From a virus (lineage: Duplodnaviria; Heunggongvirae; Uroviricota; Caudoviricetes), in the IMG/VR virus record IMGVR_UViG_651053022_000007, positions 28,836 to 92,835 of that record: 64,000 nucleotides of DNA; one strand, given 5' to 3'. How positions within the stretch are numbered: position 1 is the stretch's first letter; each line of letters opens with the position of its first letter. The notes below the pieces were generated by a model. That model was not told the origin of the DNA, ran no database searches, and saw only the letters and a list, made by a program, of their open reading frames with translations. This document shows, in pieces, positions 265 to 30,659 of the stretch. A program made the translations under genes and the position numbers.

Positions 265-418
265 AGCTATTGCCTGATATTTATTTCAGATAATAAATAT
301 TCACCCATAAGGTAACAAAAATCAAGGATAGTTACCTATGAGGTGCATTTACCTGTTGGGTAATATTGCTTTAAATTGAATCATCTACTGATTCATATAT
401 GAGGCGATTTTCCAGAAA
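265..418. promoter_or_regulatory. divergent immunity-region control region with operator-like palindromes
   Basis: TTACC-TGTTG-GGTAA at 349-363 and GGTAA..TTACC pair at 311-336 between divergent regulator genes. Confidence 0.4.
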
Positions 419-1003
419 ATGAAAAGTATCCAGGACGTCCGCAGGCAAAATCTCAACGACTTGATCGACCGTGAATTCAATGGTGTTCAGACGCGGATGG
501 CAGAAAAACTTGGAACTCAGGCAAATCTGGTAAACCGCTGGGCTCTTGGAAAGAAGGTTATCGGCGACCAGGTTGCGCGAAAAATTGAAGCTGCCGCCAA
601 TAAACCCCGTAACTGGCTTGATATCGATCGCTCGCTTTCTCAGGAAGGTTTTCAGCCTGTCGGCCCAAGCGACATTGGTCAGCTGGCGGCTCACAACCTG
701 GAACGCTGGATGAGCGAAAGCCGCGACCTTTCAACGCAGGGAAAACTACACCGCGCATCCGGCGTCGCCCAGGTGACAATCAGCCGCCTGTTAAACAATG
801 AAGTCAGCGTTTCCATTTCCACCCTGGAGAATGTTGCATCCGCATTCGGGCGTCACGGCTATGAATTACTGATTCACCCGCACGACCCTGCGACTATCAA
901 CTATGATCGCTCGCGCTACGCATTGTTACCTGAAACAGAGAAGGCAAAGATCGAAAGTTACATTGAATTTGTCATCAACCAGAACGAAAAAAGAAAACAA
1001 TAA
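419..1003 (+). CDS. tandem-HTH (XRE-like) DNA-binding protein, putative phage repressor/regulator
   Basis: 194-aa ORF with two HTH-like segments (QTRMAEKLGTQANLVNRW and ASGVAQVTISRLL). Confidence 0.5.
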   Translation: MKSIQDVRRQNLNDLIDREFNGVQTRMAEKLGTQANLVNRWALGKKVIGDQVARKIEAAANKPRNWLDIDRSLSQEGFQPVGPSDIGQLAAHNLERWMSESRDLSTQGKLHRASGVAQVTISRLLNNEVSVSISTLENVASAFGRHGYELLIHPHDPATINYDRSRYALLPETEKAKIESYIEFVINQNEKRKQ

Positions 1004-1024
1004 AATCATATTTTTCAGTAAGTA

Positions 1025-1048
1025 AGCCGCCTCATGGCGGCTTTTTTA
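1025..1048 (+). terminator. rho-independent terminator
   Basis: hairpin AGCCGCC-TCAT-GGCGGCT followed by T6 immediately after the 419..1003 stop. Confidence 0.55.
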
Positions 1049-1060
1049 TTGCCTATACGA

Positions 1061-1075
1061 TTACCTTATGGGTAA
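1061..1075. promoter_or_regulatory. operator-like palindrome TTACC-N5-GGTAA
   Basis: TTACCTTATGGGTAA read directly. Confidence 0.45.
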
Positions 1076-1094
1076 TTTTTTTAACTCATATCTA

Positions 1095-1137
1095 TTGACA
1101 TCAAACCAGATACGCATAATTATTACCTCAACGGTAA
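1095..1137 (+). promoter_or_regulatory. putative early promoter overlapped by operator palindrome
   Basis: TTGACA at 1095-1100, -10-like TAATTA/ATAATT near 1116-1122, then TTACC-TCAAC-GGTAA at 1123-1137. Confidence 0.4.
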
Positions 1138-1156
1138 CAGACCGAGGTAACAAGTT

Positions 1157-1309
1157 ATGCAGTGGAAAATCATCAACGGTTGGTACTGCGTTACTGCATG
1201 CGGATTCATGAGCTGGAAGTTCCGCACCTTACAGGAAGGCATTAAGTGGGCTTTCGTCAGCAAAGAAGCTCGCGATGTAGCCAACGATAACGAGATATGG
1301 GAGGGCTGA
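1157..1309 (+). CDS. small hypothetical protein (50 aa)
   Basis: ATG..TGA ORF not in supplied track (MQWKIINGWYCVTACGF...); first ORF downstream of promoter. Confidence 0.25.
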   Translation: MQWKIINGWYCVTACGFMSWKFRTLQEGIKWAFVSKEARDVANDNEIWEG

Positions 1310-1311
1310 TA

Positions 1312-1611
1312 ATGAACGTTAATCAGCAGAAAAATCTTCAAAAAATCATGCTGGCATTCGACAAGGACTACCCCCTGTCAGAACAGCTATATGACCGACA
1401 AGTTGAACTGATTGAGAGCATCCGACTTCATCAACTGTCCTCAACTTTCGACGTTGTAACAGGCAAAGGCGTTCGTCAGGAAGTGCTGGAGGCTGCTAAA
1501 GACAGCCCTGAGTTCGAAGAACTGATGGATGCCTACCGGCGCGAGGCAATGGCAATTATAGCGCGCTGGGATCTGGCGGATCAGCTTGATGGGCAGAGGG
1601 ACGCGGCATGA
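1312..1611 (+). CDS. hypothetical early-operon protein (99 aa)
   Basis: ORF 1297..1611 with likely start at MNVNQQ; immediately upstream of and overlapping the exonuclease gene. Confidence 0.45.
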   Translation: MNVNQQKNLQKIMLAFDKDYPLSEQLYDRQVELIESIRLHQLSSTFDVVTGKGVRQEVLEAAKDSPEFEELMDAYRREAMAIIARWDLADQLDGQRDAA

Positions 1612-2507
1612 TGCGGAACGCTGGAATCATGGATAGAACAAAATACATCGGAGGAAGCGATGTTGCAGGGATTCTTGGAATTAGCCCATGGCGCACCCCG
1701 CTTGAGGTTTATCTGGATAAGGTACAGCCACGTGTCAAACCAGTAGACCCAAGCAAGCAGAAAGTTTTCACGCGTGGCCAGCGTATGGAGCCATACGTAA
1801 TAGACCTGCTTTCTGAGGAAACAGGGATGGAAATCGTTCATCGCGGAAACCGCTATATCCACCGTGATTACGATTTTATTGCAGCTGAGATCGATGCAGA
1901 AGCAGCGTCAGGCGAGAACATTGAGATCAAAACAGTTAGTCCGTTCAAAGCCAAAGAATGGGGAGAAATCCAGACAGATGCAATTCCTGTGCATTACACG
2001 GCCCAGGCCATGCACGGGTTGATGGTTACAAACAAACAGGTATGCGTTTTCGGTGTGCTTATCGGTGGCGACGACTTCCGAATCTATCGGGTTGAGCGTG
2101 ATGAAGAAACTATCCAGGCGATCTTAGAAAAAGAAATCGCTTTCTGGGACCGAGTGAAAAATCTTAACCCGCCGGAAGCTACCAGCGTAAGCGATGTATC
2201 GCTGATGTTTGAGAAAGATGCCGGGACAAGTATCGAGGCTGACGGAAAGGCACTCGCACTATTCAACGATCTACGAGACATGAAATCACGCAGAAAATCA
2301 CTGGAAGAAGAAATAGCTATATCAGAAGAGAAGCTGAAGATGTACATGCAAGAGCACTCAGTCCTGACCCTGGACGGAAAGCCGCTCTGCACATGGAAAT
2401 CTCAGATCAGCAACAGATTCGACCAGAAGCTATTCCAGTCAGTACACCCTGAGTTATTCGAAAAATTCAAAACAACAACGACACAACGCGTCTTCAGAAT
2501 GAAGTAA
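1608..2507 (+). CDS. YqaJ-type PD-(D/E)XK recombination exonuclease
   Basis: 299 aa; N-terminal GGSDVAGILGISPWRTPLEVY motif typical of YqaJ viral recombinase exonuclease; precedes RecT. Confidence 0.7.
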   Translation: MMRNAGIMDRTKYIGGSDVAGILGISPWRTPLEVYLDKVQPRVKPVDPSKQKVFTRGQRMEPYVIDLLSEETGMEIVHRGNRYIHRDYDFIAAEIDAEAASGENIEIKTVSPFKAKEWGEIQTDAIPVHYTAQAMHGLMVTNKQVCVFGVLIGGDDFRIYRVERDEETIQAILEKEIAFWDRVKNLNPPEATSVSDVSLMFEKDAGTSIEADGKALALFNDLRDMKSRRKSLEEEIAISEEKLKMYMQEHSVLTLDGKPLCTWKSQISNRFDQKLFQSVHPELFEKFKTTTTQRVFRMK

Positions 2508-2516
2508 GGAGAAAAA

Positions 2517-3539
2517 ATGTCTATCAATGCACTTAAGGCAGCGGCTACCGGTAACCAAGTTGCACATCATAATGAGAAACCAACAACTCTGGCCGGACTT
2601 CTGGCAGACCCAAAAATTAAAGCTCAGATGGCTTTGGCACTTCCAAAGCACATGACAGCAGACCGTCTGGCGCGCATAGCAACCACAGAGATCAGAAAGG
2701 TTCCAAAACTTGCATCATGCGACCAAGCCAGCTTCCTGGGGGCAATTATGCAATGTGCCCAATTGGGTCTTGAACCAGGCGGAGCTCTTGGACACGCTTA
2801 CCTGATACCGTTCGACAAACGCCAGAAAGTAAATGGAAGATGGGAAACCGTATCTACAGAAGCACAGCTGATTATCGGCTATCGCGGAATGATTGACCTT
2901 GCCCGCCGCTCTGGGCAGATCCTGAGTATCTCGGCTCGTACCGTACATACAAACGACAAATTCAGCTACTCATACGGCCTGGAAGAAACGCTCGAGCATT
3001 TACCTTGCGAAACAGGTGACCGCGGAGAATTAACGCACGTTTACGCCGTTGCACGACTGAAAGATGGCGGAGTCCAATTTGAAGTTATGAGCCGGGCAGA
3101 CGTTGAGAAAGTTCGTGCACTGAGCAAAGCCGGTAGCAGTGGCCCATGGGTTGATCACTTCGATGAGATGGCTAAAAAAACAGTAATTCGCCGACTGTTC
3201 AAATATCTTCCTGTTTCTATTGAAATGCAGAAGGCTGTTGTTATGGATGAGCGCGCTGAAGCTGGACTTAGCCAAGATAACGCAGCTGTTATCACTGGTG
3301 AATATTCCGTAGTTGACGATGAGCGTCAACACCTGTCGCCAATTTCAGATTCAGAACGAGAAGAAGCTCGAGAATATATCATCGCGATACTTAATAGCCT
3401 GGATCCATCTGCTGAAGATGCAAAAACGATGTTCAAGCGCGCTGAAAATGAAATTAACACCATGGCTGAAAAGCTCGGTGATGAATATCACCAAAAATTC
3501 ATGATGACGCTTAACGATATGCGTCCAGAATTCGAGTAA
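2517..3539 (+). CDS. recT: RecT-family single-strand annealing recombinase
   Basis: 340 aa; strong similarity to RecT (RIATTEIRKVP, GLEPG..LGHAYL.PF, LIIGYRGMIDLARRSGQI, GPW, AKKT.IRRLFKYLPVSIE). Confidence 0.85.
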   Translation: MSINALKAAATGNQVAHHNEKPTTLAGLLADPKIKAQMALALPKHMTADRLARIATTEIRKVPKLASCDQASFLGAIMQCAQLGLEPGGALGHAYLIPFDKRQKVNGRWETVSTEAQLIIGYRGMIDLARRSGQILSISARTVHTNDKFSYSYGLEETLEHLPCETGDRGELTHVYAVARLKDGGVQFEVMSRADVEKVRALSKAGSSGPWVDHFDEMAKKTVIRRLFKYLPVSIEMQKAVVMDERAEAGLSQDNAAVITGEYSVVDDERQHLSPISDSEREEAREYIIAILNSLDPSAEDAKTMFKRAENEINTMAEKLGDEYHQKFMMTLNDMRPEFE

Positions 3540-3588
3540 CCACCACCGCGGCGCCACGTGCGCCGCACTGCAACCAAGAGAGGTATTC

Positions 3589-3837
3589 ATGAAAGGTGCA
3601 TTAGGTAAGAAAGAACTCCTGGCGGTGGTGCCACTGTCATGGAGCACTATCGACCGTATGGAGCGCGCAGGGGAATTTCCTAAACGCTGGTATATCACCG
3701 ATAAACGCTGCGCATGGAACCGTGATGAAGTTGAGCGTTGGCTTGATGAACGTCAGGCAGCAAGCCCGGCAGAGTTCCAGGGTAAAAAGCCTCCTGTTCA
3801 GCAACGTGTATATCGTCCTGTGAGCAACGCGGCATGA
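3589..3837 (+). CDS. AlpA-family phage regulatory protein / excisionase-like
   Basis: 82 aa; small HTH protein with AlpA-like motif (LSWSTIDRMERAGEFPKRW). Confidence 0.6.
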   Translation: MKGALGKKELLAVVPLSWSTIDRMERAGEFPKRWYITDKRCAWNRDEVERWLDERQAASPAEFQGKKPPVQQRVYRPVSNAA

Positions 3838-3946
3838 GTGTGCTGCTAAGGCACTGGAGCAAATGGTCAGGATGGTACTTATTCCTGGCCTCTGTTTCAG
3901 CATGGCTTTATCTGCTGGCATTAATTTTCAGAGAGGGTTGGATTAA

Positions 3947-5545: not shown

Positions 5546-5547
5546 AA

Positions 5548-6804: not shown

Positions 6805-7121
6805 AATTCACCCGTATAGAAACCATTTTCATGACGGTATGAGAGTATACCTTTAAGGTAATACCGTCACCTGTACCGCCGAAAAATATGGTGTAGAGTG
6901 AATAGAAATGAATACGTAAAAACAAAAACCCTCTGCAAAAACAGAGGGTTGAGTTGGCATCTGAATAGGAATGATTTGCTATGAGTTAGCTGTTAATCAT
7001 TCCCACTCAATTATTTACGGATACCATAACCAATTGAGTGATAACATTTTTCCAAAACTCAATTTTCCTCGTACCGTTTTATATACCGTCACCGGAAATC
7101 AGTACCATGAAAAATGCCATG
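6805..7121. promoter_or_regulatory. integrase upstream region / candidate attP
   Basis: repeated ATACCGTCAC-like motifs, degenerate palindrome ATACC-TTTAA-GGTAA at 6847-6861, hairpin AACCCTCTG..CAGAGGGTT at 6925-6950; lies between int and the lysis cassette. Confidence 0.3.
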
Positions 7122-8919: not shown

Positions 8920-8991
8920 AACGAAACCCGTTTATTTGCAAACACCCTGCTTCAGGAAAAGTATACCGCGCAACAACACACCATTTACGGT

Positions 8992-11454: not shown

Positions 11455-11558
11455 GTTAAATCTCCAGATAGTCGCAGCACCCGTTGCGCCGCATATCTGG
11501 TTATTCTATTACCCAAAAAACCATATATGGATAGAAAGACTGTGAATATGAATAGATA

Positions 11559-11573
11559 TTACCTTTCAGGTAA
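11559..11573. promoter_or_regulatory. operator-like palindrome TTACC-N5-GGTAA
   Basis: TTACCTTTCAGGTAA read directly. Confidence 0.45.
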
Positions 11574-11610
11574 TTTGCAAAACGTGCTGGATAGCAAACA
11601 AATTATTTGC

Positions 11611-11630
11611 TACTGTATAAATATACAGTT
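11611..11630. promoter_or_regulatory. LexA (SOS) box
   Basis: TACTGTATAAATATACAGTT = CTGT-N8-ACAG with AT-rich spacer, about 20 nt upstream of the 11651 start. Confidence 0.6.
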
Positions 11631-11650
11631 ATTGCATGGAGAAGATTAAG

Positions 11651-11908
11651 ATGCAGCAGTATCACTATCCACTGGAAGAGGGATTTACCGAAAGGATTCA
11701 CACGCCGGGAGGCGTCAGGTCACTGGTGGAGGGATCGCACTTGATGAAATTACTCCGGGATCTCGATAAGGATGGATTTAATGTCGATGGCCCACTTGCC
11801 GAACTGACTGCACTGATTAACTACGTCACCAGCTCACAGATGTCTATGCAGGATCTGCAAACACATCTCGACTATTGTGCCGAACAATTACGAAAACAAA
11901 CCAGATAA
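11651..11908 (+). CDS. small protein homologous to the C-terminal domain of Ant; putative SOS-controlled antirepressor-like factor
   Basis: ORF 11636..11908, likely start at MQQYHY (GGAG 8 nt upstream); about 40% identical by eye to the C-terminal 65 aa of 12224..12919. Confidence 0.45.
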   Translation: MQQYHYPLEEGFTERIHTPGGVRSLVEGSHLMKLLRDLDKDGFNVDGPLAELTALINYVTSSQMSMQDLQTHLDYCAEQLRKQTR

Positions 11909-12223
11909 GGTTTGCAATCACCAAATGGAGTGCTTATATTTACCTTTGCGGTAAATTTACAACGCACTCCTCTTGTGCCATAGTAATCGAGCACTGGCAA
12001 AATCCAGTGCCGGGATTGGCGTCCCGGATTACTAAAAGGCGCATTCACCGCGCAAGCGGTTTTTTTATGCGTATAGCACGGCCACATTCGTATTATGGTG
12101 GGCTGTGTGGGGGCACCGAAAGGTGCGCCGGGTCCTTTTAGCCGGTTACGCCAACCCTGCACAGTTCACCACCAACCGATTGGCGTCGGTAGTGGTGATT
12201 AACCAGACTAAAAGGTAACCACT

Positions 12224-12919
12224 ATGACAGCTACAAAAAGCACGTCCATTTTTTCTTTCGAATCCCAAGCCGATATACGGGTAATCGTCATTAATGGTGA
12301 GCCATGGTTTATCGCTTCAGATGTTTGTCGGGCTATAGGCATAGCAAACCATCGAGATGCTGTTCGAAAACTTGATGATGATGAGAAGGGCGTCGCTTCA
12401 ACCGACACCCCTGGCGGTGAGCAAGAATCGATCATCATCTCCGAGTCAGGCCTCTACACACTGATCCTCCGCTGCCGCGACGCAGTGACACCAGGCACTA
12501 TCCCCTACCGCTTTCGCAAATGGGTTACAGGTGATGTTCTTCCTCAGATCCGTCGCACCGGAAGTTACATTAAAAACTCGCTCCCGCAGGAAGAACGCAT
12601 AAAGATGGTTGCCGACCAGGTAGCCAGCGCCACAGCATCAGCAGTGATGCAGGCAATGAAGGTAGAGAACAAAACCTACAGCGCCCCACTGAAGCCCGGC
12701 TACCGCAGCCTGATTCATTCGCCGTCTGGTGTTCTTGGCCTGACGGAGAACTCACTGCTGATGAATCTGCTGAACCAGTTACAGGACGACGGGCATGACG
12801 TATCGGGCGCGGCGGCGGAGCTGACCACCATGTTCTGCTACATCGTCGGTGTGAGCAAATGCCTGCGTGATATCCAGACGCACGCGGAGTACATCAGCGA
12901 CAAAGCAGGGTTCTTCTGA
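12224..12919 (+). CDS. ant: Bro-N domain antirepressor (Ant)
   Basis: 231 aa; N-terminal Bro-N-like region (IRVIVINGEPWFIASDVCRAIGI...SGLYTLIL). Confidence 0.75.
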   Translation: MTATKSTSIFSFESQADIRVIVINGEPWFIASDVCRAIGIANHRDAVRKLDDDEKGVASTDTPGGEQESIIISESGLYTLILRCRDAVTPGTIPYRFRKWVTGDVLPQIRRTGSYIKNSLPQEERIKMVADQVASATASAVMQAMKVENKTYSAPLKPGYRSLIHSPSGVLGLTENSLLMNLLNQLQDDGHDVSGAAAELTTMFCYIVGVSKCLRDIQTHAEYISDKAGFF

Positions 12920-12985
12920 CGGGCGGCGGCACAGGGATGTGCCTTTAAAATAATCATTGGCGATGTGATGTAGATTCGCGTAATA

Positions 12986-13000
12986 TTACCTTAAAGGTAA
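12986..13000. promoter_or_regulatory. operator-like palindrome TTACC-N5-GGTAA
   Basis: TTACCTTAAAGGTAA directly followed by AGGAGG RBS. Confidence 0.45.
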
Positions 13001-13011
13001 AGGAGGCGCGA

Positions 13012-13179
13012 TATGACAGCGTTGAAAAATCGTACTCAGCACAATGAACAAGCCAAGCAATGCTGGGATGTCATTGGAAAAGTTATGCTTGGTCGCGCAA
13101 GCAAAGAGCGCGACAAGGATATGGTTTACCAGACAGGAACATCTTTTAGCGACTTCAAGGCGGCATTTCGCTCCAAATA
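13012..13179 (+). CDS. small hypothetical protein (55 aa)
   Basis: ATG 5 nt after AGGAGG; MTALKNRTQHNEQAKQCWDVIGKV...; not in supplied track. Confidence 0.3.
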
Positions 13180-13200
13180 GAAGCACATCAGGAGTTTTCC

Positions 13201-13644
13201 TTGAAGTTTAACATTAGAATATCTAATAGTTTTCTACATGGGGAAAGCAACACCCCTTTCGCTGTAGACGGACCTTTCCTTACTGATGATGAAATAAAAA
13301 TCATACAAAGGTTTTTAGAGGATGTTGCCAATGGAAGGGCGCTTGTTGGAAAAAACAAGCCATCGTGGGTTGATGATAACCATGATAAAATTCCCGGCTC
13401 AGACAATTATGAGCAAGAGAATTATTGGCATTATCATTGTGGGCCAACATGGTATCCAAACACATTTAAGAATTATACCATTAACTTAAATTTCAACCCT
13501 GGCGGAATGCATTCTAATGAATGCATTCATTATGCAAAAAATGATAATGAAATTGTCATTGTTGGATTTTCAAGAGAACACATACCTTTCCTTTCATCAG
13601 ATGGAAACAACAATCCGCTTTTTAATGATGAAGAAGAAGAATAA
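13201..13644 (+). CDS. hypothetical AT-rich moron protein (147 aa, acidic C-terminal tail)
   Basis: TTG start 8 nt after CAGGAG; low-GC coding region; Cys/His-containing, ends NDEEEE; followed by terminator. Confidence 0.45.
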   Translation: MKFNIRISNSFLHGESNTPFAVDGPFLTDDEIKIIQRFLEDVANGRALVGKNKPSWVDDNHDKIPGSDNYEQENYWHYHCGPTWYPNTFKNYTINLNFNPGGMHSNECIHYAKNDNEIVIVGFSREHIPFLSSDGNNNPLFNDEEEE

Positions 13645-13666
13645 GCCCGCGCTGCGGGCTTTTTTG
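13645..13666 (+). terminator. rho-independent terminator
   Basis: GCCCGC-GCT-GCGGGC hairpin plus T-run directly after stop. Confidence 0.6.
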
Positions 13667-13899: not shown

Positions 13900-13935
13900 A
13901 AACAAGGCCGCGAAAGCGGCCTGTGACATGTCACG

Positions 13936-18745: not shown

Positions 18746-18746
18746 G

Positions 18747-21443
18747 TTATCGTCCTGATTGCTGGCCGTTCTGGAAAATGTTAATCAGGTTGTCGCGCTG
18801 ACTTTCTGCGCTGTATTCCTTAGACTGTCCGGGAGTATATTTCACCGGAGTATCAATGAACTTGGTAATGCTGTTCCATACTGATCGGTTGGTTGTTCCC
18901 AGTTTCGCCAGATCGTTGAACGGCACCGTAATCGGGTTGCCGTCGGCACCGTTGACGATCAGCCCGTTGAGCATCAGGGTAAGTCCTGTTTCGTCGCTGT
19001 TGGTAACCCACTGCGCATTATCACGAATGCGGGAGATACTCTGCTCACGGTTGACCTCATCAGGTAGCCTTGGGTCACCAATAAGCGGCATAATCTGATC
19101 TGCTGACAGGTTTTTCAGATACGCATTGGCACCATCGTTAACGTCACGAATATCTATCCCTGCACGCTTAGGTAGCCGCCAAGTGCCATTGGTCTGGTAC
19201 TGCTCGCCGAGGATGTCCTGATACGCCTGTTTTGCTGCATCAGACGCCGACATTCCGCGCTGCATGTTGATGTAAGTAAGTCGTTTTCCCTGCTCGTTGA
19301 AGTTATTCCACACGGCAGTGCCACCAGGCTGAACAACCATCGTGCCAGCAAAATCTTTCGATTGGTCATTCCATGACGAGTCGGCGCTATCCGCGTCGGT
19401 TTTCTCAAGACTGCCGCGTAAGTCAGCAGTTTTAACGCTACGGTTTTGCCAGAGCGCATTTGCCGCGCGCGGGTTCTCGGTAGCCATGACAACCTGCAAC
19501 GCAGGATAAGCGCTCTTCTGAACCTGCTGCATCACCTGATCCGAGTATTTGCCGAACGACTGCGCCACCGACTGAATGGCCTTTACGCTAGATTCCTGCG
19601 TGTTGTCAATACGCTGCAGTACGTCGTTGACCATGGACTCCGGTAAAACTTTTTTGCTCATTATCCCCAGGCGGTCTTTTTCAGACTGTATGCGGGAAAC
19701 TAGGTATTCACCAGATGAAGGGTCATTCAGGTACTGCTGGAATGCAGCCTGCACAACCGGAGAGTTTTGTTGCAGCCATGCCCCCGGATCCGCTTCCCGC
19801 GCCTTCAGTACCTGCCCAAGCTTGACCTTTGCCGATGCATAAAGCTCTGCTTTGTATTTAAAGTCAGGGTCGTTTTCCTGCGGTGCCATTGCCTGCACGG
19901 CGGCGGTACCCTGCTGGACGTTGCCCTGCATAATGGTCTGATAAACAGGTTGTAGCGTCATTGCCTGCTGGTATTGCTGGAAGGTTTTTTCCATCTGCAG
20001 GCGCTCGGCAGGCGCTGCCTGAAGCGGCATAACGGCGGCCCATTCGTGCGCTGAAATAGGCGTCACCTGCTTACCGGCCTCAATTTTGGATAGGTCGTCC
20101 TGCATTCGACTCTGTAGCGCAACGCGACCGGCTGAAGCCTGCATGTCGTACATGCCAGCAACCTTGCTCATCATCTGCGACTTTTTGTCCGGACTCATGG
20201 CGTTCCAGAATGGCTGTGCGATGAGGTTTTCCATCGTCGCAGATCCAGGAATAGCTCCAGCACTGCCAGTTACTTTTGCCACATAATTGCGCGTCTCGTC
20301 GTATGGGATAGCTGCGGCAAACTGGGCGTTACTGACTTCGCCTGTGCGCGGATCGCCAATCTGTTTAATCCAGCCGTCAACCTTTCCTGGGCCAGCGTTA
20401 TAGGCAGCTACTGCCAGAACCGGGTTATTGTCGTATTTCTTCATCTGCGCGCCGAAATAAGCTTGCCCCAAGCGGGCATTATAGCGCGGGTCATTCAACC
20501 ATTTATCTCGGTCCCACGGCACGCCAGCAAGGCGGGCAGCTTCGGGGCCAGTATCTTCCGTCACCTGCGCTACGCCAACAGCGCCTTTTGGCGACACCAG
20601 AGGTGTTCCGTCCTTTCCGTACTGATTTCCGCCACTCTCCTGCCAGATTATTGCAGAGAATAACTGCGCCTCACTCGGTGTATCGGTTACCTCAATCTTG
20701 CCGTTCGGACCCATCATCTGTTGATACATCGGCACATACCACGCCTCCGCCGCACCGTTCGCGGCATTCTCGCGCCACGAAACCCAGTTCTGTTCGATCT
20801 CTTCCTGACTCTGGCCGTGGGCTTCGCCGTAAGCGATGATGCTATGATATGCCTTCAATCCTGCCTGGTTTGCCATTGTCGGGTTACGGAACTGCATCGA
20901 TAGGTTTTTTAGTGTCGCATCCTGCATATCCGCCTCATACTGGCGAACCTGTCCTATTTCGTACCTCCCGGCCTGCGTAGTGAACTGAATGCGCTGCTGC
21001 TGCGCCTGCTGCATGAAAGCATTACGAGCCTGTTCATCCGGCAGCGACATAGCCAGTTGTTCGACCTGAGCATCAAACTGCTGCGTATACTCATGGCCTT
21101 TTCCAATAGCATTTTTCCCTTTCAGGTTAAGCAATCCTGTTTCAGGATTATTCAGCAGATCGCTGCTTATCTGACTGAGGTTAAGAGATGCCTCCTGAGC
21201 CAGAGCGATATTGGCACGCTGTTTTGCCTGCCCCAAAACATCAATTGCCTCTGTCCCTGCCCGAACAAAAGCATCACCAATACCTGGCTGAGAAAACGTC
21301 TGCAAGCCTGCTGACTGAACTCCACGACTCTCAACCTGACGTCCGGATACTGTTGGTACGACTGGCATTATAATCCTCCGGGTAATCTGGTTCCTGCTGC
21401 TGCCCCGATTGGCGCAGGAGTGCTTTGAGTAAACGGACTCCAC
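18747..21443 (-). CDS. internal virion protein with lytic transglycosylase (SLT) domain
   Basis: 898 aa; SLT motifs AIIWQESGGNQY...VGVAQV...AYNAGPG. Confidence 0.7.
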   Translation of the reverse strand: MESVYSKHSCANRGSSRNQITRRIIMPVVPTVSGRQVESRGVQSAGLQTFSQPGIGDAFVRAGTEAIDVLGQAKQRANIALAQEASLNLSQISSDLLNNPETGLLNLKGKNAIGKGHEYTQQFDAQVEQLAMSLPDEQARNAFMQQAQQQRIQFTTQAGRYEIGQVRQYEADMQDATLKNLSMQFRNPTMANQAGLKAYHSIIAYGEAHGQSQEEIEQNWVSWRENAANGAAEAWYVPMYQQMMGPNGKIEVTDTPSEAQLFSAIIWQESGGNQYGKDGTPLVSPKGAVGVAQVTEDTGPEAARLAGVPWDRDKWLNDPRYNARLGQAYFGAQMKKYDNNPVLAVAAYNAGPGKVDGWIKQIGDPRTGEVSNAQFAAAIPYDETRNYVAKVTGSAGAIPGSATMENLIAQPFWNAMSPDKKSQMMSKVAGMYDMQASAGRVALQSRMQDDLSKIEAGKQVTPISAHEWAAVMPLQAAPAERLQMEKTFQQYQQAMTLQPVYQTIMQGNVQQGTAAVQAMAPQENDPDFKYKAELYASAKVKLGQVLKAREADPGAWLQQNSPVVQAAFQQYLNDPSSGEYLVSRIQSEKDRLGIMSKKVLPESMVNDVLQRIDNTQESSVKAIQSVAQSFGKYSDQVMQQVQKSAYPALQVVMATENPRAANALWQNRSVKTADLRGSLEKTDADSADSSWNDQSKDFAGTMVVQPGGTAVWNNFNEQGKRLTYINMQRGMSASDAAKQAYQDILGEQYQTNGTWRLPKRAGIDIRDVNDGANAYLKNLSADQIMPLIGDPRLPDEVNREQSISRIRDNAQWVTNSDETGLTLMLNGLIVNGADGNPITVPFNDLAKLGTTNRSVWNSITKFIDTPVKYTPGQSKEYSAESQRDNLINIFQNGQQSGR

Positions 21444-22377: not shown

Positions 22378-24848
22378 CAGAACCCACCAACAGTAAGGCG
22401 AGGAATAACGGCAAGAACAGACAGCGGCAACGGATCAAGCTGACGGATTTTTACACGTCCGTTTTTGCCCCAGTTACTGTCCAGTTTCACTTCTACTTTT
22501 CCGGTAGCATCATCAACAGGATCATCGTAGAACTCGAATTCACGCTGTGGATATTCGTACCATTTGCCGCCGGGCGTAGTCGCCCAGATGCCGCGGCTGG
22601 CATTCACAACCAGAGTAACGGAGGGGATCACCTGTTTTTTGTCCAGCAGCGTTTCCTGTCCGTTAATGTTGATATCCAGTGTTTCGAATTCAGCAGTTAT
22701 TGGCAGGCCGATGTGCACAACAGCCCCCGGAGATTCCAGCGTGACGGCACCTCCGGAAACAACTTTCTGTGGTTCCACGTTCGCATCAGAGAGAATGTTT
22801 ACGGTCTGGCCTTCAAGATGAGACAGGCCTCCAAATGTCCGGCGCGCCATCTGCCAGTTCGTGGTGGCCACATTCCTGAGGGATGGCGGGACGTTCCTGT
22901 TAGCACGAACCACTACAGCGGTGTTGCTGGTTACAGAAATAATGTCGCAACGTAATTCTTTTGACACTTCATCGCCAGTATCAGGATCAGTTCCGGTATA
23001 AGGGAACTGTAGTTGCGCACCGACATCACTACTGGTGAAGTACGCACCACCAGAAACACTGATTGTATATTCCTCGCGGTAATCCCATTCGCCAGAACCA
23101 CCAGTGATGATCATCGTTCTGTCAGACGTATTTCTTCCATCATAGCTAAGGCCAGAATCAACAAAGAAAGCATCTTCATCGCTGGTAAATAAACGGCTGG
23201 ACAGTCGCTCGATGTATCTCACTGTTTGCCCGTTAACGGTTCGGTTAACGACGAAATACACCGCATCTTCATTGCCTTCACTGATACTGCATGTGCTTTC
23301 ATATTTTCCGGTACTGGATTGTGGTGCCCATGCAAAAACCTGCTGATCACGCAAATAGGTCATCACCAGTAATTTACCGTCATCACGAATGCAGAAGGCG
23401 CTGGAGTAAGGGACAATAGAGAAGCACCAGTCAACAATGCTGTGCTTCTGAAAAAGATGATTGGCAAGGATGGTCAGGTCGTTCCCCTGATAGCCGTCAA
23501 CATCGAATGAGTAGGCCAGATCACGGACAACACTGCCTTTCTCCTGGACGAACAGAGCAATATTCGCCACGGCAATTGGTGGGACATTGCTCGAGCCATT
23601 TGATCCCTGAGAGCTGAATGCAAATGATGATGGGGTAAGCACTTTGTTCTGGTCGCCAGTGATGACGTACTCACCTCCGGAAGTCAGCGCCACCAGCGAA
23701 CCAACATCAATCAGGTGACGGATCTCATTAACCTGACGCCCGGCATAGGTGTAGATAATTCTGTCGTCATCCTGCGTAGGGTTGCTTTTGCCAAAATCCT
23801 TATAATCCCCGGTACGGCTGGCCCCGATAGTCTGAGGAAACGCAGTCGATGCGGCGAAGTAAAGACGTTGTTGATAATAAACAACAGTGCCAGGATAACC
23901 ATTAACACTGTTCCAGGCATATTTAGCCCATTTATAGCTGGCATTATCCTCGCCAACTACCTGCGAAGGGATATAGGAAATCACCTCGGCAGTTGCAGTA
24001 GTTCCATTTGCAGCAGAGATACGGGCAATGCCAAAACCACTGTGCAGATACTCCCACTCAATGCCGGTATCATCATCACCGGATCCGCCCCAGCCATCCC
24101 ATGATGTGCCTTCTGTATGCGAAGGGCGCAAAGTGCCTGTTTTGCCTACTGTAACGGCGCGATAGTAGTTACTGTCTGCACGGCGAATATCGCCAATTGA
24201 CGTACTCTTACTGGTTTCCCATACCGGCACAGAATCCACTGCAGGCTGTTCCAGATAGAACAATTTGCCTACCTGCTCCGCGCCAAAAATAGAGGCGCTT
24301 GCCGTTAGCGTAATTGTCCCGGTGCTGGCGCTGGCATAAACCGTCACTGACTCGTCAATATTGATATCTTCAAATGGTCCGTTCTTCGTTACCACATCAA
24401 CCAGTTGCCAGTTGTCATGCGCATAGCGACGCAACTCTTTCGGCGGGTATGCCGGATGAACAAGCGTAAGCACGTCGGCGCTTTGCGTGAATTTAATTCG
24501 GAACAGATCGGCTTCAGTATATGGCGTGGCAATTTCATAAATAACATTGCTGCTGTTCAGCACCAACGCACCATCTTTGATAACGCGCATGTACTGGTGT
24601 CCGAACTCCAGAGCATAGGTCTGAACCGTCGAGAACTGGAACGGGATCAGGCGGCATTTCCGATTTGGGTATTTGGCGGCACCGACAAAACGCGTACCTG
24701 GTCGATTCTCAACGCCGCCATACTGCCGCACGATAAAGTTATCGCACTTGCGCAATGCCACCTGGTACTTCGCCATGTCAATACGCCCGTACAACGACGG
24801 TCCAATCTCACCACCGGCAAAGCTGGGCTGGATCCAACTGATAGCCAT
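22377..24848 (-). CDS. large tail (tube/nozzle-like) structural protein
   Basis: 823-aa ORF downstream of capsid module; size and position as podovirus tail tubular protein B; no motif-level proof. Confidence 0.45.
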   Translation of the reverse strand: MAISWIQPSFAGGEIGPSLYGRIDMAKYQVALRKCDNFIVRQYGGVENRPGTRFVGAAKYPNRKCRLIPFQFSTVQTYALEFGHQYMRVIKDGALVLNSSNVIYEIATPYTEADLFRIKFTQSADVLTLVHPAYPPKELRRYAHDNWQLVDVVTKNGPFEDINIDESVTVYASASTGTITLTASASIFGAEQVGKLFYLEQPAVDSVPVWETSKSTSIGDIRRADSNYYRAVTVGKTGTLRPSHTEGTSWDGWGGSGDDDTGIEWEYLHSGFGIARISAANGTTATAEVISYIPSQVVGEDNASYKWAKYAWNSVNGYPGTVVYYQQRLYFAASTAFPQTIGASRTGDYKDFGKSNPTQDDDRIIYTYAGRQVNEIRHLIDVGSLVALTSGGEYVITGDQNKVLTPSSFAFSSQGSNGSSNVPPIAVANIALFVQEKGSVVRDLAYSFDVDGYQGNDLTILANHLFQKHSIVDWCFSIVPYSSAFCIRDDGKLLVMTYLRDQQVFAWAPQSSTGKYESTCSISEGNEDAVYFVVNRTVNGQTVRYIERLSSRLFTSDEDAFFVDSGLSYDGRNTSDRTMIITGGSGEWDYREEYTISVSGGAYFTSSDVGAQLQFPYTGTDPDTGDEVSKELRCDIISVTSNTAVVVRANRNVPPSLRNVATTNWQMARRTFGGLSHLEGQTVNILSDANVEPQKVVSGGAVTLESPGAVVHIGLPITAEFETLDININGQETLLDKKQVIPSVTLVVNASRGIWATTPGGKWYEYPQREFEFYDDPVDDATGKVEVKLDSNWGKNGRVKIRQLDPLPLSVLAVIPRLTVGGF

Positions 24849-25782: not shown

Positions 25783-25826
25783 TCCTGCAATAAAGGGGCC
25801 GAAGCCCCTTGTCTCATCCGCGAGGC

Positions 25827-26171: not shown

Positions 26172-26172
26172 C

Positions 26173-26610: not shown

Positions 26611-26661
26611 CTTCTTTCTCCATTAGTGGGTCTGTTACGACCCACAGGTTAATAACAGGCG

Positions 26662-27654: not shown

Positions 27655-27662
27655 TTCCTCTC

Positions 27663-28364
27663 TTATTTGCCATAGAGCACTTCGGCCGCACTACGCTGGC
27701 CTTCATTACCACCGGTGACCATGCCATCTTCAGACATCGCCTTTCCGATTTTCACGAACGTTTTGACCAGATCAGGGTGATTACCCAGTCCGGTGGTGTT
27801 CAGATATTCTTTGAGTTCAGGTGTCCCGAACTGGTCAAGCGCACGCTGTGCGGCGCTAAGGTTAGAAATCAACTTGTCGCCACCGATTTCTTTGTCAGCT
27901 TTTACATCCGCAGCCCACTGCTCGGTTGTTTTCTGCCAGGCTTCTGCCTGGCGCTGCTGAACACCTGCCAGAATCTTCGGATAAGCATCAACCAGCTTTT
28001 GCGCTTGCTCGTTGGTCAGGTTTAGTTCTCGCGCCACCGGCTCGAATTCCTTCAACGCTTCTGTATCCAGCTCTACGCCTTCGGCAGCCTGAAACTCGTA
28101 CTTCTCCGGCGCACCCTCCGGTTTATCGCCGCCCTTTTTTTCATCCTGCTTATCGTTTTCAGGCTTTTTGTCATCAGCAGGTTTATCGCCATCAGCAACA
28201 GGTTGTGGCTTATCACCTTCCTGTTGTGATGGTTCACCAACTGGAGCAGGGGTATCACCTGCAGGCGCTGACGGTTCTGACGCAGCCGGAGCTGCTCCAC
28301 CATCGACTGGTTGCTCATTGCAAAGACGGCGATACAGCAAACGCTCAAATAAATTCATGATCAC
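27663..28364 (-). CDS. scaffolding protein
   Basis: 233 aa, acidic, Pro/Glu/Lys-rich N-terminus then helical region; between portal and capsid. Confidence 0.55.
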   Translation of the reverse strand: MIMNLFERLLYRRLCNEQPVDGGAAPAASEPSAPAGDTPAPVGEPSQQEGDKPQPVADGDKPADDKKPENDKQDEKKGGDKPEGAPEKYEFQAAEGVELDTEALKEFEPVARELNLTNEQAQKLVDAYPKILAGVQQRQAEAWQKTTEQWAADVKADKEIGGDKLISNLSAAQRALDQFGTPELKEYLNTTGLGNHPDLVKTFVKIGKAMSEDGMVTGGNEGQRSAAEVLYGK

Positions 28365-28657
28365 TCCTGTTCACTGGCCTCTTTGGCCATCTTCAAATAC
28401 TGTTCAGGGCAATGCGCCATAACGCGCTGAAACAGTTCCAGCGCCAGATTGCGTTGCCCCTCATTAAATGCCATTGCCATAGCGTCCATCGGTGAGATAG
28501 CGGAAAACACACGGCCTTTCTCCAGCACCGACCAGACAACGCGACGCCCCTGTTCACTGCTCATGACAAAGCGAATGTCATCAATTTCACGCTGCGCCAT
28601 GTCACGTTGCTTACGGGCGTTTTCTTCTTTCAGTTGATCGTCTTCGTAATCAGTCAT
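28361..28657 (-). CDS. small structural-module protein
   Basis: 98-aa ORF overlapping portal stop. Confidence 0.35.
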   Translation of the reverse strand: MTDYEDDQLKEENARKQRDMAQREIDDIRFVMSSEQGRRVVWSVLEKGRVFSAISPMDAMAMAFNEGQRNLALELFQRVMAHCPEQYLKMAKEASEQE

Positions 28658-30333
28658 TGTGATTGCCCACCCTGACCACTAACTGCATTCGCCATAGCTG
28701 ACAAAACACTCGGATCCGAAGTTTTAGCTTCGCTTAGCGTCTTGGCGCCCTGTGCCGCCGCCATCCCCATCGCCATCATTTGTTGCTGCTGTTGCTGCTG
28801 TGCCCGTTGCTGGCGAGCCTGCTCAACCTGTTCCTGCGGAACAATGACGGTTGGAGACACTCCGGACATATCAGCGAATGCATCGATCGCCTGATCAACG
28901 TTGAGTTTGTCGAGAGCTTCTGGTTTCGCTTGCGCAAGTTGACCAATGAAGTTGACCGTAGACGCCAGACTGGACAGGCCGATAGACTTCTGCGCCTGAG
29001 CCATGACGGAAATGTATTCGACCTTCAGGGGCATACCTTCCATCACGTCTGGCGGTGGCGGCAGCATGTTTTTACGCACCATCATTGAGAAAGCGCGGTC
29101 AATGAGAGGATTAAGACATTCGTCGTTCAGACGCTCCAGAACCGGCCCCAACATCAGAAGTTTTTCTTCTTTCATTTCGATCACTGCTTCAACAGGCATC
29201 GAGCGGGTATTGATGTTCTGCAACATCATGAACAGATCGACAAAGTAGGCGCTGTTAATGATTTGACGAGTGTCCTGAATGTCTGCTACCAGATCTGCTG
29301 TACTGGGGTTAACCAGATAAGCAGGCCTGAAGCCATCCTGACCAGTAATCTGATCGATATACGTGATGTCGCCAGGAAGAAGGGAGGCGCGCTGATTCTT
29401 GAGGGAAGTCGGAGCAACCATCGGCGGATTGGTGGCTTTATCAATCAACTGCGACTTGCGCTTCTGGAGAAGTTGCAATGCCTTAACAGGTCCAAGCGCC
29501 AGCATACCCGGGCATGATGATCCATAAACATCTTCGCCATTAACTTCCCAGCGCGGAGCCATAATTGGAAACTCATCAAATCCGGACTCACGCAACAACT
29601 TGTCGTTATCGCCACCAACCTCGTAATAAACCGATTTGAATGGCTTGTTCTTGCTATCCAGCTTCGATGTATCGCGGTCAATGTTCGGGTAAACCGAATG
29701 CATCACGTCAATCCACTTCTCGTAGGTGCCGCTTTCCCACATGCTTTTTACGGATTCGCTGACGTTATTTAGCCCGAACTCCTGAACAAGCTGACGAACA
29801 GTCATAGAGAACTTGCGAAAACAGGTGTCCACACTGCCACGAGGTGAGTTAGCCAGGTAGTAACTGCCTATCGGGAATGGCATTGTGCGAATGATGTCCT
29901 CGTCATCCTCCAGCACCGCCATTGCACCAGTGCTGTATGTGCCGAGGCTTCCGTATAACTGCGGAAGAGACTGGTAGAGATTCGACTTATTGAACATATC
30001 GTTCATGCGGTTCTGCACCGCCTCGAGCCACAACTTAACAGGACCATAATCCATCATTTCAGGATCTGGCGTAGCCAGGCGAAACCACGGACGCGCGGGG
30101 CTTGTGATGCCTGACATCATGCCGCTGGCGAGAGTGCGCGCCGCCATAGTCCCGGTCGAATCAATAATGCGTGTATTGCGTCGATCGTTACGGTTGACCT
30201 CAGAAGTCAGAAAGCGGGAACCACGCGGGTTGATGTAATCACTCAACTCGCGCCAGTGCGGCTCAAACGACTGACGCTCGCTTTCAAGTTGTGCGAACTG
30301 TTTGTTCAATCGCTCTTTAGTTGTTTCCGCCAT
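28654..30333 (-). CDS. portal protein
   Basis: 559 aa; position upstream of scaffold and capsid; C-terminal Gln/Ala-rich tail. Confidence 0.7.
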   Translation of the reverse strand: MAETTKERLNKQFAQLESERQSFEPHWRELSDYINPRGSRFLTSEVNRNDRRNTRIIDSTGTMAARTLASGMMSGITSPARPWFRLATPDPEMMDYGPVKLWLEAVQNRMNDMFNKSNLYQSLPQLYGSLGTYSTGAMAVLEDDEDIIRTMPFPIGSYYLANSPRGSVDTCFRKFSMTVRQLVQEFGLNNVSESVKSMWESGTYEKWIDVMHSVYPNIDRDTSKLDSKNKPFKSVYYEVGGDNDKLLRESGFDEFPIMAPRWEVNGEDVYGSSCPGMLALGPVKALQLLQKRKSQLIDKATNPPMVAPTSLKNQRASLLPGDITYIDQITGQDGFRPAYLVNPSTADLVADIQDTRQIINSAYFVDLFMMLQNINTRSMPVEAVIEMKEEKLLMLGPVLERLNDECLNPLIDRAFSMMVRKNMLPPPPDVMEGMPLKVEYISVMAQAQKSIGLSSLASTVNFIGQLAQAKPEALDKLNVDQAIDAFADMSGVSPTVIVPQEQVEQARQQRAQQQQQQQMMAMGMAAAQGAKTLSEAKTSDPSVLSAMANAVSGQGGQSQ

Positions 30334-30622
30334 TTCAATGACTCCGGTTACTGACCAAGCAGCGTTTTACCGCTGGTATTAGCGGTTGATGTGTCGCCCT
30401 GAGAACCGGTAAGCAGCGTAGAACTACGACCAGCAGCAGCGCGACGGCGACGTGTTTCTTCGTCGCGGGCATCAACAACGGCGACATCCTGCTCCTGTGG
30501 TGCTGCCTGAACTTCTGGTGTTGCAGGCACTGATGGTGAGCTACCCATGCACATATCAATGACTCCGTACGCAATTAAATTATTACCAATTTAACCACAT
30601 ATGTTTTATTTATCGTAGAAGG

Positions 30623-30659
30623 TTGACATTTAACGCGCTAATTATTACCTTTCAGGTAA
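30623..30659 (+). promoter_or_regulatory. putative promoter with operator-like palindrome
   Basis: TTGACA at 30623-30628 and TTACC-TTTCA-GGTAA at 30645-30659. Confidence 0.4.

What the first reader, a model, noticed from the sequence alone, without database searches (positions are those of the whole stretch)
349..30659. Recurrent TTACC-N5-GGTAA palindrome at six intergenic sites
The same 15-bp palindrome with a fixed 5-bp spacer occurs at 349-363, 1061-1075, 1123-1137, 11559-11573, 12986-13000 and 30645-30659, with a one-mismatch copy at 6847-6861. Chance expectation for ten fixed positions in 64 kb is about 0.06 occurrences. Every copy is intergenic and promoter-proximal, which suggests one repressor co-regulates the immunity region, the antirepressor module, the moron island and the tRNA-Arg locus.
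Basis: seen in the sequence. Interest (0 to 1): 0.7.

Follow-up and report, generated by a model that had tools for sequence, protein, structure and literature searches.

The report
Repressor operator sites of an epsilon15-like phage
The repeated TTACC-N5-GGTAA palindrome is real. It is the binding site (operator) of the lysogeny repressor of an epsilon15/phiV10-type phage, a motif already annotated in phage epsilon15, so this is a correct but largely ordinary finding.

Summary
TTACC-N5-GGTAA occurs 8 times exactly in the window, against 0.02 expected. All 8 lie in the 7.7% of the phage part that is non-coding, and none lies in the 28 kb of non-phage DNA. It is the only over-represented palindrome.

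Window 1 to about 35.5 kb is a phiV10-like Uetakevirus genome. The GenBank record of epsilon15 annotates 7 'repressor / lysogeny' protein-binding sites, and each one is this motif. The same motif sits at syntenic positions in eight relatives:
- epsilon15, SPC32H, phiV10, Enterobacter phage Tyrion and Klebsiella phage BUCT711;
- three prophages from E. coli, Serratia and a metagenome.

Gene 419-1003 is a full-length homologue of the SPC32H repressor Rep (PDB 5D50). The small antirepressor Ant, preceded by a LexA box, is also present.

Operators sit on or next to sigma-70-like promoters. These include a conserved cassette in which two operators 62 bp apart flank a promoter. One operator-promoter drives an isrK/C4-RNA/Bro-N antirepressor module.

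Three points need correcting:
- the copy at 6847 is ambiguous;
- the terS and Bro-N sites were missed;
- the binder is most likely Rep.

The kind is known. The 62-bp geometry and the extent of the regulon are modest additions. Binding itself is inferred.

The parts
349..363 (.). Operator (exact), between the repressor gene and the divergent Cro-like gene (O_R-like cluster)
   Evidence: Orthologous to epsilon15 33341/33358 and phiV10 32727. Conserved in 78 of 80 IMG/VR relatives.
332..346 (.). Degenerate operator (2 mismatches, TTACCTATGAGGTGC), middle site of the O_R-like cluster, 17 bp from 349
   Evidence: Sequence read. The 17-bp spacing matches epsilon15 33341/33358 and BUCT711 6402/6419.
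301..315 (.). Operator (1 mismatch, TCACC), in the spacer/-35 region of a leftward promoter-like site (TTGTTA-17-TATTAT, 318 to 290) for the Cro-like gene
   Evidence: A 1-mismatch TCACC site at the same relative place, 47-48 bp from the exact O_R site, occurs in epsilon15, SPC32H, phiV10, Tyrion and L089; L087 has a different single mismatch there (GGTAG).
419..1003 (+). Repressor gene (Rep; epsilon15 gp38 / SPC32H Rep family), the proposed binder
   Evidence: phmmer against PDB 5D50_A gives E 3.5e-42 over the full length. 99.5% identical to the phiV10 and ZX5 repressors. The N-terminal helix-turn-helix segment NLVNRW is invariant across clades.
34..264 (-). Cro-like 76-aa helix-turn-helix protein (epsilon15 gp39 family), a possible second binder at the O_R-like sites
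   Evidence: PHROG phrog_35 'transcriptional repressor', E 5.6e-13. 58-84% identical across clades. No Pfam or PDB hit.
1061..1075 (.). Upstream operator of the early-left promoter cassette, centred about -62
1095..1123 (+). Early-left promoter-like site TTGACA-17-AATTAT (recombination operon)
   Evidence: 10 of 12 matches. The -35 TTGA is invariant in 11 aligned cassettes.
1123..1137 (.). Downstream operator of the early-left cassette, starting on the last T of the -10 and centred about +1; 62 bp from 1061
6847..6861 (.). One-mismatch copy upstream of int; status ambiguous
   Evidence: Same mismatch in all relatives. The whole block is 88% conserved, and the copy lies inside a larger inverted repeat. 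epsilon15 annotates Int and RNase III sites here, not a repressor site.
11559..11573 (.). Operator between the tailspike gene (-) and the Ant gene (+)
   Evidence: Orthologous to the annotated epsilon15 repressor site 19895-19911.
11613..11628 (.). LexA box CTGT-N8-ACAG (TACTGTATAAATATACAGT) in front of Ant
   Evidence: Conserved in six genomes.
11636..11908 (+). Small antirepressor Ant (SPC32H type)
   Evidence: phmmer against PDB 5D50_E 'Anti-repressor protein' gives E 1.7e-47, 74 of 83 residues identical.
11912..11940 (+). Promoter-like site TTGCAA-17-TATATT
   Evidence: The design is conserved in phiV10, Tyrion and BUCT711.
11940..11954 (.).
11991..12176 (+). isrK-like RNA (11991-12066) and C4 antisense RNA (12091-12176), downstream of the operator-promoter
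   Evidence: Rfam gathering hits of 77.9 and 77.7 bits. Same arrangement in phiV10 and Tyrion.
12224..12919 (+). Bro-N antirepressor-like gene, last gene of the operator-controlled module
   Evidence: Pfam Bro-N E 6e-21. PHROG 'anti-repressor Ant' E 5e-61.
12986..13000 (.). Operator on the +1 of promoter-like TTGGCG-18-TAATAT, directly followed by a Shine-Dalgarno sequence and ORF 13013-13180, then ORF 13201-13644
   Evidence: The module is shared with phages HEMP4 and phiv142-3. The ORFs have unknown function.
30623..30659 (+). Promoter-like TTGACA (30623-30628), 17-nt spacer, TACCTT, overlapped by the operator 30645-30659; it reads toward tRNA-Arg (30982-31058) and gene 31257-31613
   Evidence: Conserved in six genomes. 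Orthologous to the annotated epsilon15 repressor site 2931-2947.
33772..33804 (.). Two operators (33772-33786 with 1 mismatch, 33790-33804 exact) immediately upstream of the terS start codon (33768, - strand)
   Evidence: Orthologous to the annotated epsilon15 repressor site 12-27. The 18-bp pair recurs in six relatives.
11507..11529 (-). Second conserved motif (TATTACC-N5-AACCAnATATG), a candidate late promoter facing the tailspike gene; its centre is 50 bp from the centre of operator 11559
30581..30603 (-). Second copy of the candidate late-promoter motif, facing the gp3/portal operon; its centre is 62 bp from the centre of operator 30645

Best explanation
The palindrome (consensus A-TTACC-W5-GGTAA-T) is the operator of the prophage maintenance repressor Rep, encoded at 419-1003, in a phiV10/epsilon15-type (Uetakevirus) phage.

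Proposed mechanism:
- Rep is a homologue of the tetrameric SPC32H Rep. It would bind each palindrome with a pair of N-terminal helix-turn-helix domains.
- The operators lie on the -10/+1 of sigma-70-type promoters (1123, 11940, 12986, 30645), just upstream of terS (33772/33790), and in a three-site cluster between rep and the divergent Cro-like gene (301/332/349).
- Bound Rep would therefore shut off the early-left recombination operon, the early-right operon, the isrK/C4/Bro-N antirepressor module, an accessory two-gene cassette, the tRNA-Arg/gp66-family unit and terS.
- At the early-left promoter a second operator sits 62 bp upstream (about six helical turns). One tetramer could clamp both sites.
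- Release follows the SPC32H route: DNA damage removes LexA from the box at 11613-11628, the small Ant (11636-11908) is made, and it takes Rep off the DNA.

What is shown here: the motif statistics, its positions, its synteny, and the homologies.

What is inferred: that Rep binds these sites, promoter activity and transcription start sites, and tetramer bridging.
For: 1. Motif statistics and exclusively non-coding location.
2. All 7 'protein_bind: repressor, lysogeny' features in the epsilon15 GenBank record are this motif.
3. The motif is the single over-represented palindrome, at syntenic positions, in epsilon15, SPC32H, phiV10, Tyrion, BUCT711 and three further prophages. Their Rep proteins are 41-99% identical to the window's. 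That gives 57 exact sites with invariant half-sites.
4. Rep is a full-length homologue of 5D50_A and Ant of 5D50_E. The LexA box is conserved.
5. Two papers describe SPC32H Rep as a tetrameric repressor with an N-terminal DNA-binding domain that binds palindromic DNA sites and is dismantled by Ant (PMC9638917; PMC9986798).
6. In phage ZX5, whose repressor is 99.5% identical, overexpressing the repressor removed free phage and cut holin and endolysin mRNA by 99.97-99.99% (PMC9782041).
7. The promoter-operator design is invariant in 11 aligned cassettes and in the single-operator promoters.
Against: - No binding data exist for this phage. The primary epsilon15 and SPC32H papers could not be read here, so the experimentally used operator sequence is not confirmed from text.
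- The epsilon15 sites are annotations, that is, predictions.
- The Cro-like protein is as conserved as Rep and always adjacent, so comparative data cannot say which protein binds.
- There is no covariation: the half-site stays the same even where the putative recognition helix varies (NLVSRW, NLISRW).
- The promoters are consensus matches only, and promoter-like hits overall are not enriched.
- No convincing promoter was found at 11559 or 33790.
Confidence: 0.87

Rival explanations
1. The sites are bound mainly or only by the 76-aa Cro-like protein (34-264), a lytic-phase regulator, and not by Rep.
For: It is a conserved helix-turn-helix protein in PHROG family 'transcriptional repressor'. It is always adjacent to the O_R-like cluster. 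In lambdoid switches (established knowledge) Cro and CI share operators.
Against: epsilon15 annotates the sites as lysogeny-repressor sites. Sites in front of terS, accessory and antirepressor modules make sense for a maintenance repressor. Overexpressing the Rep homologue silences lytic genes. SPC32H Rep is reported to bind palindromic sites. Shared binding at 301-363 remains quite possible.
Confidence: 0.08
2. The palindromes act as RNA hairpins (processing, attenuation or termination signals) rather than as DNA-binding sites.
For: Each forms a small hairpin of -3.5 to -5.8 kcal/mol. Several lie at or just after predicted transcription starts. epsilon15 annotates RNase III sites in some of the same intergenic regions.
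Against: The stems are short and weak, and no U-tract follows. Across 57 sites the stem bases are invariant in sequence and do not covary, while the loop varies. That is the signature of protein recognition of DNA. The upstream operators of the 62-bp pairs lie upstream of the -35 and would not be transcribed from that promoter.
Confidence: 0.02
3. The motif is a target of another system, such as the phage DNA methylase, a restriction enzyme, packaging, replication or a host factor like IHF, or it is a chance or compositional effect.
For: The phage encodes an adenine methylase. epsilon15 annotates IHF sites next to two of the operators.
Against: Methylase, restriction or packaging targets would not be confined to the 7.7% of non-coding DNA, nor locked in register with -10 hexamers. 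Chance is excluded. The motif does not resemble the IHF consensus (own knowledge).
Confidence: 0.02

Closest known systems
Repressor-binding sites annotated in Salmonella phage epsilon15 (GenBank AY150271.2; Kropinski et al. 2007, not readable here)
   Same: Identical half-sites and spacing. The orthologous positions are terS upstream, gp3 upstream, the ant/tailspike gap and the early-left promoter. Both phages belong to the genus Uetakevirus.
   Different: The window's Rep is only about 42% identical to epsilon15 gp38. The window adds sites in front of an isrK/C4/Bro-N module and an accessory cassette that epsilon15 lacks. It lacks the lysis-cassette site, and the replication/RuvC pair lies outside the window. 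The epsilon15 record marks only 7 of its 11 exact copies.
SPC32H Rep-Ant-LexA switch (PDB 5D50/5D4Z; Kim & Ryu 2013 and Kim et al. 2016, known here through PMC9638917 and PMC9986798)
   Same: Full-length Rep homologue, Ant 89% identical, LexA box before ant, and the same palindrome at the same places in the SPC32H genome.
   Different: Rep is about 41% identical. Binding of this Rep to these sites is untested. SPC32H has no C4/Bro-N module.
Phage P1 C1 repressor with dispersed operators and the immI operon (c4-icd-ant under C1 control) (own knowledge)
   Same: One repressor with many operators scattered through the genome. An operator-controlled promoter drives a C4 antisense RNA followed by an antirepressor gene.
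   Different: P1 operators are asymmetric 17-mers of unrelated sequence, and C1 is an unrelated protein. Here the site is a palindrome and the repressor is an HTH_3-type tetramer.
Lambda CI/Cro with OL/OR
   Same: Divergent repressor and Cro-like genes separated by three adjacent sites. Operators overlap the early promoters.
   Different: No S24 autocleavage domain, and induction is by an antirepressor. Operators are not confined to two clusters: they also precede terS and accessory units.

Membership tests
epsilon15/SPC32H-type (Uetakevirus) Rep operator set | Site sequence equals the sites annotated as repressor-binding in epsilon15 | tested here: met
   All 7 annotated features are TTACC-N5-GGTAA. 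The window has 8 exact copies.
epsilon15/SPC32H-type (Uetakevirus) Rep operator set | Cognate repressor of the SPC32H Rep family encoded beside the main site cluster | tested here: met
   419-1003 against 5D50_A: E 3.5e-42, residues 1-191 aligned.
epsilon15/SPC32H-type (Uetakevirus) Rep operator set | Sites at syntenic positions in related genomes | tested here: met
   Site classes shared with epsilon15, SPC32H, phiV10, Tyrion, BUCT711 and L087-L089.
epsilon15/SPC32H-type (Uetakevirus) Rep operator set | Small Ant antirepressor under a LexA box | tested here: met
   Ant against 5D50_E: E 1.7e-47. CTGT-N8-ACAG at 11613-11628 is conserved.
epsilon15/SPC32H-type (Uetakevirus) Rep operator set | Physical, sequence-specific binding of Rep to the palindrome and repression of the adjacent promoters | not testable with these tools
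   Only indirect evidence: the ZX5 overexpression data and secondary descriptions of SPC32H Rep.
Lambda-type CI/Cro OL-OR switch | Repressor with a RecA-stimulated S24 autocleavage domain | tested here: not met
   Pfam finds only helix-turn-helix families and no Peptidase_S24.
Lambda-type CI/Cro OL-OR switch | Operators confined to two tripartite clusters flanking the repressor gene | tested here: not met
   Exact copies also occur at 11559, 11940, 12986, 30645 and 33790.
P1 C1 multi-operator immunity with immI | Asymmetric 17-bp C1 operator and a C1-family repressor | tested here: not met
   The site is a perfect palindrome. The repressor is HTH_3/5D50-like. The P1 operator sequence is cited from own knowledge.
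P1 C1 multi-operator immunity with immI | C4 antisense RNA upstream of an antirepressor gene, behind a repressor-controlled promoter | tested here: met
   Rfam C4 at 12091-12176, Bro-N gene at 12224-12919, operator-promoter at 11912-11954.

The most novel reading that the evidence does not exclude
The operators are not independent sites. They are paired at a fixed 62-bp (six-turn) distance around promoters: 11 of 11 cassettes in six genomes, and again between operator 30645 and a half-operator inside a candidate head-operon promoter. On this reading a single Rep tetramer uses its two pairs of DNA-binding domains to clamp both sites and wrap the promoter in a micro-loop. With operators before early, accessory, tRNA and packaging units, one protein would then silence almost the whole genome directly, with no late-gene cascade to hold back. 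This would give a physical meaning to the 'trans' binding mode reported for SPC32H Rep. As far as I could see, it is not described in the papers I could read.
Probability: 0.3. Interest if true: 0.45.

Novelty: new member of a known kind. Interest (0 to 1): 0.25.

Why it matters
For annotation, the result gives the operator map of the common E. coli phiV10/ZX5-type prophages. Neither the phiV10 RefSeq record nor the ZX5 paper has such a map. It also ties the map to a repressor family with a solved structure.

It shows that phages of Escherichia, Salmonella, Enterobacter, Klebsiella and Serratia keep the same operator while their Rep proteins have drifted to about 41% identity. Ant, by contrast, stays at 89%. 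This predicts cross-immunity and cross-induction between prophages of different genera, which matters where phiV10-type phages are used for O157 detection or typing.

The conserved 62-bp two-operator promoter cassette is a compact, testable design for tetramer-mediated repression.

None of this changes current understanding of phage immunity.

Tried and rejected
1. I tried to read the primary papers: Kropinski 2007 (PMC2698709, DOI, PMID), Kim & Ryu 2013 (PMC3807360) and Kim 2016 (PMC4983836). None is held. The literature link therefore rests on the GenBank annotation and on secondary descriptions.

2. I looked for covariation between the Rep recognition helix and the operator in divergent homologues. 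The half-site is invariant even where the helix varies, so this gives no discrimination. It also cannot separate Rep from the Cro-like protein.

3. The IMG/VR scan with the Rep alignment returned only relatives at or above 99% identity. It was useful only to show that 349/1061/1123 and an upstream 62-bp pair are conserved in the lineage.

4. RNA-hairpin reading: rejected, because the stems are weak and invariant rather than covarying.

5. The 6847 copy as a bona fide operator: not accepted, because the surrounding block is conserved throughout and other functions are annotated there.

6. A standard sigma-70 promoter over operators 11559 and 33790: I found none by eye or by scan.


Full report
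**1. Observation**

- A scan for TTACC-N5-GGTAA finds 8 exact copies, at 349, 1061, 1123, 11559, 11940, 12986, 30645 and 33790. The mean over 100 dinucleotide shuffles is 0.02.
It missed 11940 and 33790.
- With one mismatch allowed there are 15 hits against about 1 expected. The remaining four (11327, 14120, 41681, 46936) lie in coding or non-phage DNA and match the chance expectation.
- Only the 5-bp spacer is enriched.
- Among all 5-Nn-5 palindromes with n=0-12, TTACC-N5 is the single outlier.
- All exact copies fall in the 7.7% of the phage part that is non-coding, so the chance of 8 out of 8 is about 1e-9. None falls in window 35.7-64 kb.

**2. What the window is**

- Positions 1 to about 35.5 kb match phiV10-type Uetakevirus phages (phiV10, ZX5, O157 typing phages 9 and 10) at 95-98% identity, and epsilon15 at about 81%.
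- The order of genes is: Cro-like gene (34-264, - strand), repressor (419-1003), recombination operon, integrase, lysis genes, tailspike, Ant, Bro-N module, virion genes, tRNA-Arg and terminase.
- Beyond about 35.9 kb come an IS2-type element and parts of a lambdoid prophage.

**3. Identity of the motif**

- The epsilon15 GenBank record (AY150271.2) carries seven 'protein_bind: repressor, lysogeny' features. Each one is a TTACC-N5-GGTAA site.
- The motif is the only over-represented palindrome in epsilon15, SPC32H, phiV10, Tyrion (Enterobacter) and BUCT711 (Klebsiella).
- The same holds in three further prophages, from an SRA metagenome, a Serratia genome and an E. coli genome. I retrieved these through Rep homologues 54-59% identical to the window's.
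- The sites fall into syntenic classes:

| Class | Window site(s) |
|---|---|
| terS upstream | 33772/33790 |
| gp3/tRNA gap | 30645 |
| tailspike/ant gap | 11559 |
| downstream of ant | 11940 |
| early-left promoter | 1061/1123 |
| gap between rep and the Cro-like gene | 301/332/349 |
| lysis cassette | absent from this phage |
| pair between the replication genes and RuvC/DUF1064 | left of the window start |

- The last class is present in 76 of the 80 close IMG/VR relatives tallied.
- Across 57 exact sites the half-sites are invariant and the spacer is A/T-rich, with A or T at its centre in 96% of cases. The flanks favour A...T, which gives the 17-bp form annotated in epsilon15.

**4. The binder**

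- Gene 419-1003 encodes a full-length homologue of SPC32H Rep (5D50_A, E 3.5e-42).
- Papers I could read describe SPC32H Rep as follows. It has an N-terminal DNA-binding domain, a middle dimerisation domain and a C-terminal tetramerisation domain. It binds palindromic sites as a tetramer. It is dismantled by the tetrameric antirepressor Ant (PMC9638917; PMC9986798).
- The window has the Ant orthologue (11636-11908; 5D50_E, E 1.7e-47; 74 of 83 residues identical). It lies behind a near-consensus LexA box at 11613-11628, which is conserved in six genomes.
- The N-terminal segment of Rep, including NLVNRW, is the best-conserved part of a protein that is otherwise only 41-44% identical between clades. 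This fits an unchanged operator.
- In phage ZX5, whose repressor is 99.5% identical, overexpressing the repressor abolished free phage and lowered holin and endolysin transcripts by 99.97-99.99%. Its operators were not mapped (PMC9782041).
- The 76-aa Cro-like protein is equally conserved and may share the 301-363 sites. The data cannot exclude this.

**5. Anatomy and likely mechanism**

- I aligned eleven promoter cassettes from two site classes in five or six genomes. They share one design: operator, 19 nt, a -35 beginning with the invariant TTGA, 17 nt, then a -10 whose last T is the first T of a second operator.
- The operator centres are 62 bp apart (63 bp in one case). The downstream site is centred near +1 and the upstream one near -62.
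- The window's early-left promoter (TTGACA 1095-1100, AATTAT 1118-1123) is one of these cassettes.
- Single-operator promoters use the same '-10 runs into TTACC' design. These are 11912-11940 (TTGCAA-17-TATATT) and 12957-12986 (TTGGCG-18-TAATAT). Both the site after ant and this design are conserved in phiV10, Tyrion and BUCT711.
- At 30645 a perfect TTGACA (30623) lies 17 nt before TACCTT, inside the operator. This is conserved in six genomes. It reads toward tRNA-Arg and a gp49/66-family gene.
- The 11940 promoter is followed by an isrK-like RNA and a C4 antisense RNA, and then by a Bro-N antirepressor-like gene. The same holds in phiV10 and Tyrion. This layout is analogous to P1 immI.
- The two sites at 33772/33790 abut the terS start codon.
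- I found no clear sigma-70 promoter over 11559 or 33790.
- A second conserved motif (TATTACC-N5-AACCAnATATG) faces the tailspike and head operons, 50 and 62 bp from operators 11559 and 30645. It may be a late promoter with a half-operator.

*Inference:* Rep bound to these sites occludes the -10/+1 of most transcription units. The 62-bp pairs would allow one tetramer to hold two sites. Derepression follows LexA cleavage and Ant synthesis.

**6. Rivals**

- Exclusive binding by the Cro-like protein is possible but less likely (confidence 0.08).
- The RNA-hairpin reading fails. The stems are weak (-3.5 to -5.8 kcal/mol). They are invariant rather than covarying, and the upstream operators lie outside the transcripts.
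- Methylase, packaging or chance explanations do not fit the strict non-coding placement in register with promoters.
- The 6847 copy keeps the same mismatch in all relatives. But it lies in a block that is 88% conserved overall and inside a larger inverted repeat. epsilon15 annotates Int and RNase III sites there, so it stays ambiguous.

**7. Comparison and novelty**

- This is a member of the epsilon15/SPC32H Rep-operator system. Four of the five defining features I could test are met. Physical binding is untestable here.
- It works partly like the lambda switch, with divergent genes and a three-site cluster. It is not a member of that family: there is no S24 domain and the operators are dispersed.
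- It resembles P1 in logic, with many operators and a C4-ant module under repressor control. The operator and the repressor are unrelated to those of P1.
- The motif and its meaning are already on record for epsilon15. For the phiV10 group it is unannotated and unmapped.
- These details may be new, but I could not read the primary papers to check:
  - the fixed 62-bp cassette;
  - Rep control of the C4/Bro-N module and of the tRNA-Arg promoter;
  - operator invariance across five host genera;
  - the four extra motif copies that the epsilon15 record leaves unannotated.

**Verdict:** the finding is real, correctly interpreted in outline, and largely ordinary. Interest 0.25.

Noticed in passing
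window 11991-12176: An isrK-like RNA (11991-12066) and a C4 antisense RNA (12091-12176) lie between an operator-controlled promoter and a Bro-N antirepressor-like gene. This is a P1 immI-like second immunity module, sitting next to the LexA-controlled small Ant. phiV10 and Tyrion have the same arrangement.
   Followed up: partly
window 11507-11529 and 30581-30603: A second conserved motif, TATTACC-N5-AACCAnATATG, has 2 copies against 0.16 expected. It also occurs at epsilon15 2988 and 19940, and weakly at 24751. It faces the tailspike, head and lysis operons, 50-62 bp from an operator, and may be a late promoter containing an operator half-site.
   Followed up: partly
window 11636-11908 versus 419-1003: Ant is 89% identical to SPC32H Ant, while its target Rep is only about 41% identical to SPC32H Rep. 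The Ant-Rep interface and the operator seem to be held fixed while the rest of Rep drifts. This suggests cross-induction and cross-immunity between genera.
   Followed up: no
window 6805-7121 and about 35500-40500: The int/attP/Rz region is uninterrupted, so the phage is not integrated through its own attP here. phiV10-like homology stops near 35.5-35.9 kb at an IS2-type element, followed by lambdoid prophage genes (DUF968, Q, RusA). The window is a rearranged or chimeric join.
   Followed up: partly
window 37785-37979 and 39788-40122: tRNA-Ile(GAT) and tRNA-Ala(TGC) lie side by side, as in an rRNA spacer, but there is no Rfam rRNA hit in the window. Two tandem sok antitoxin RNAs lie at 39788-40122.
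   Followed up: no
L002 (epsilon15) 24704, 33341, 33358, 35969: The epsilon15 GenBank record marks only 7 of its 11 exact motif copies as repressor sites. The two copies between the repressor gene and gp39 are among those left unmarked.
   Followed up: yes
window 6847-6861: The one-mismatch copy upstream of int (GGTAT in place of GGTAA, read in the int direction) keeps the same mismatch in every relative examined. It is nested in a larger inverted repeat, GACGGTAT...ATACCGTC.
   Followed up: partly
window 12986-13644: An accessory two-gene cassette (55 aa and 147 aa, PHROGs of unknown function) has its own operator-covered promoter and a terminator at 13643-13661. In phage TL-2011b, part of whose sequence here matches the window's, a YafO-family toxin gene is annotated under the match. 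This appears to be a variable cargo slot that would be repressed in lysogens, not expressed.
   Followed up: partly
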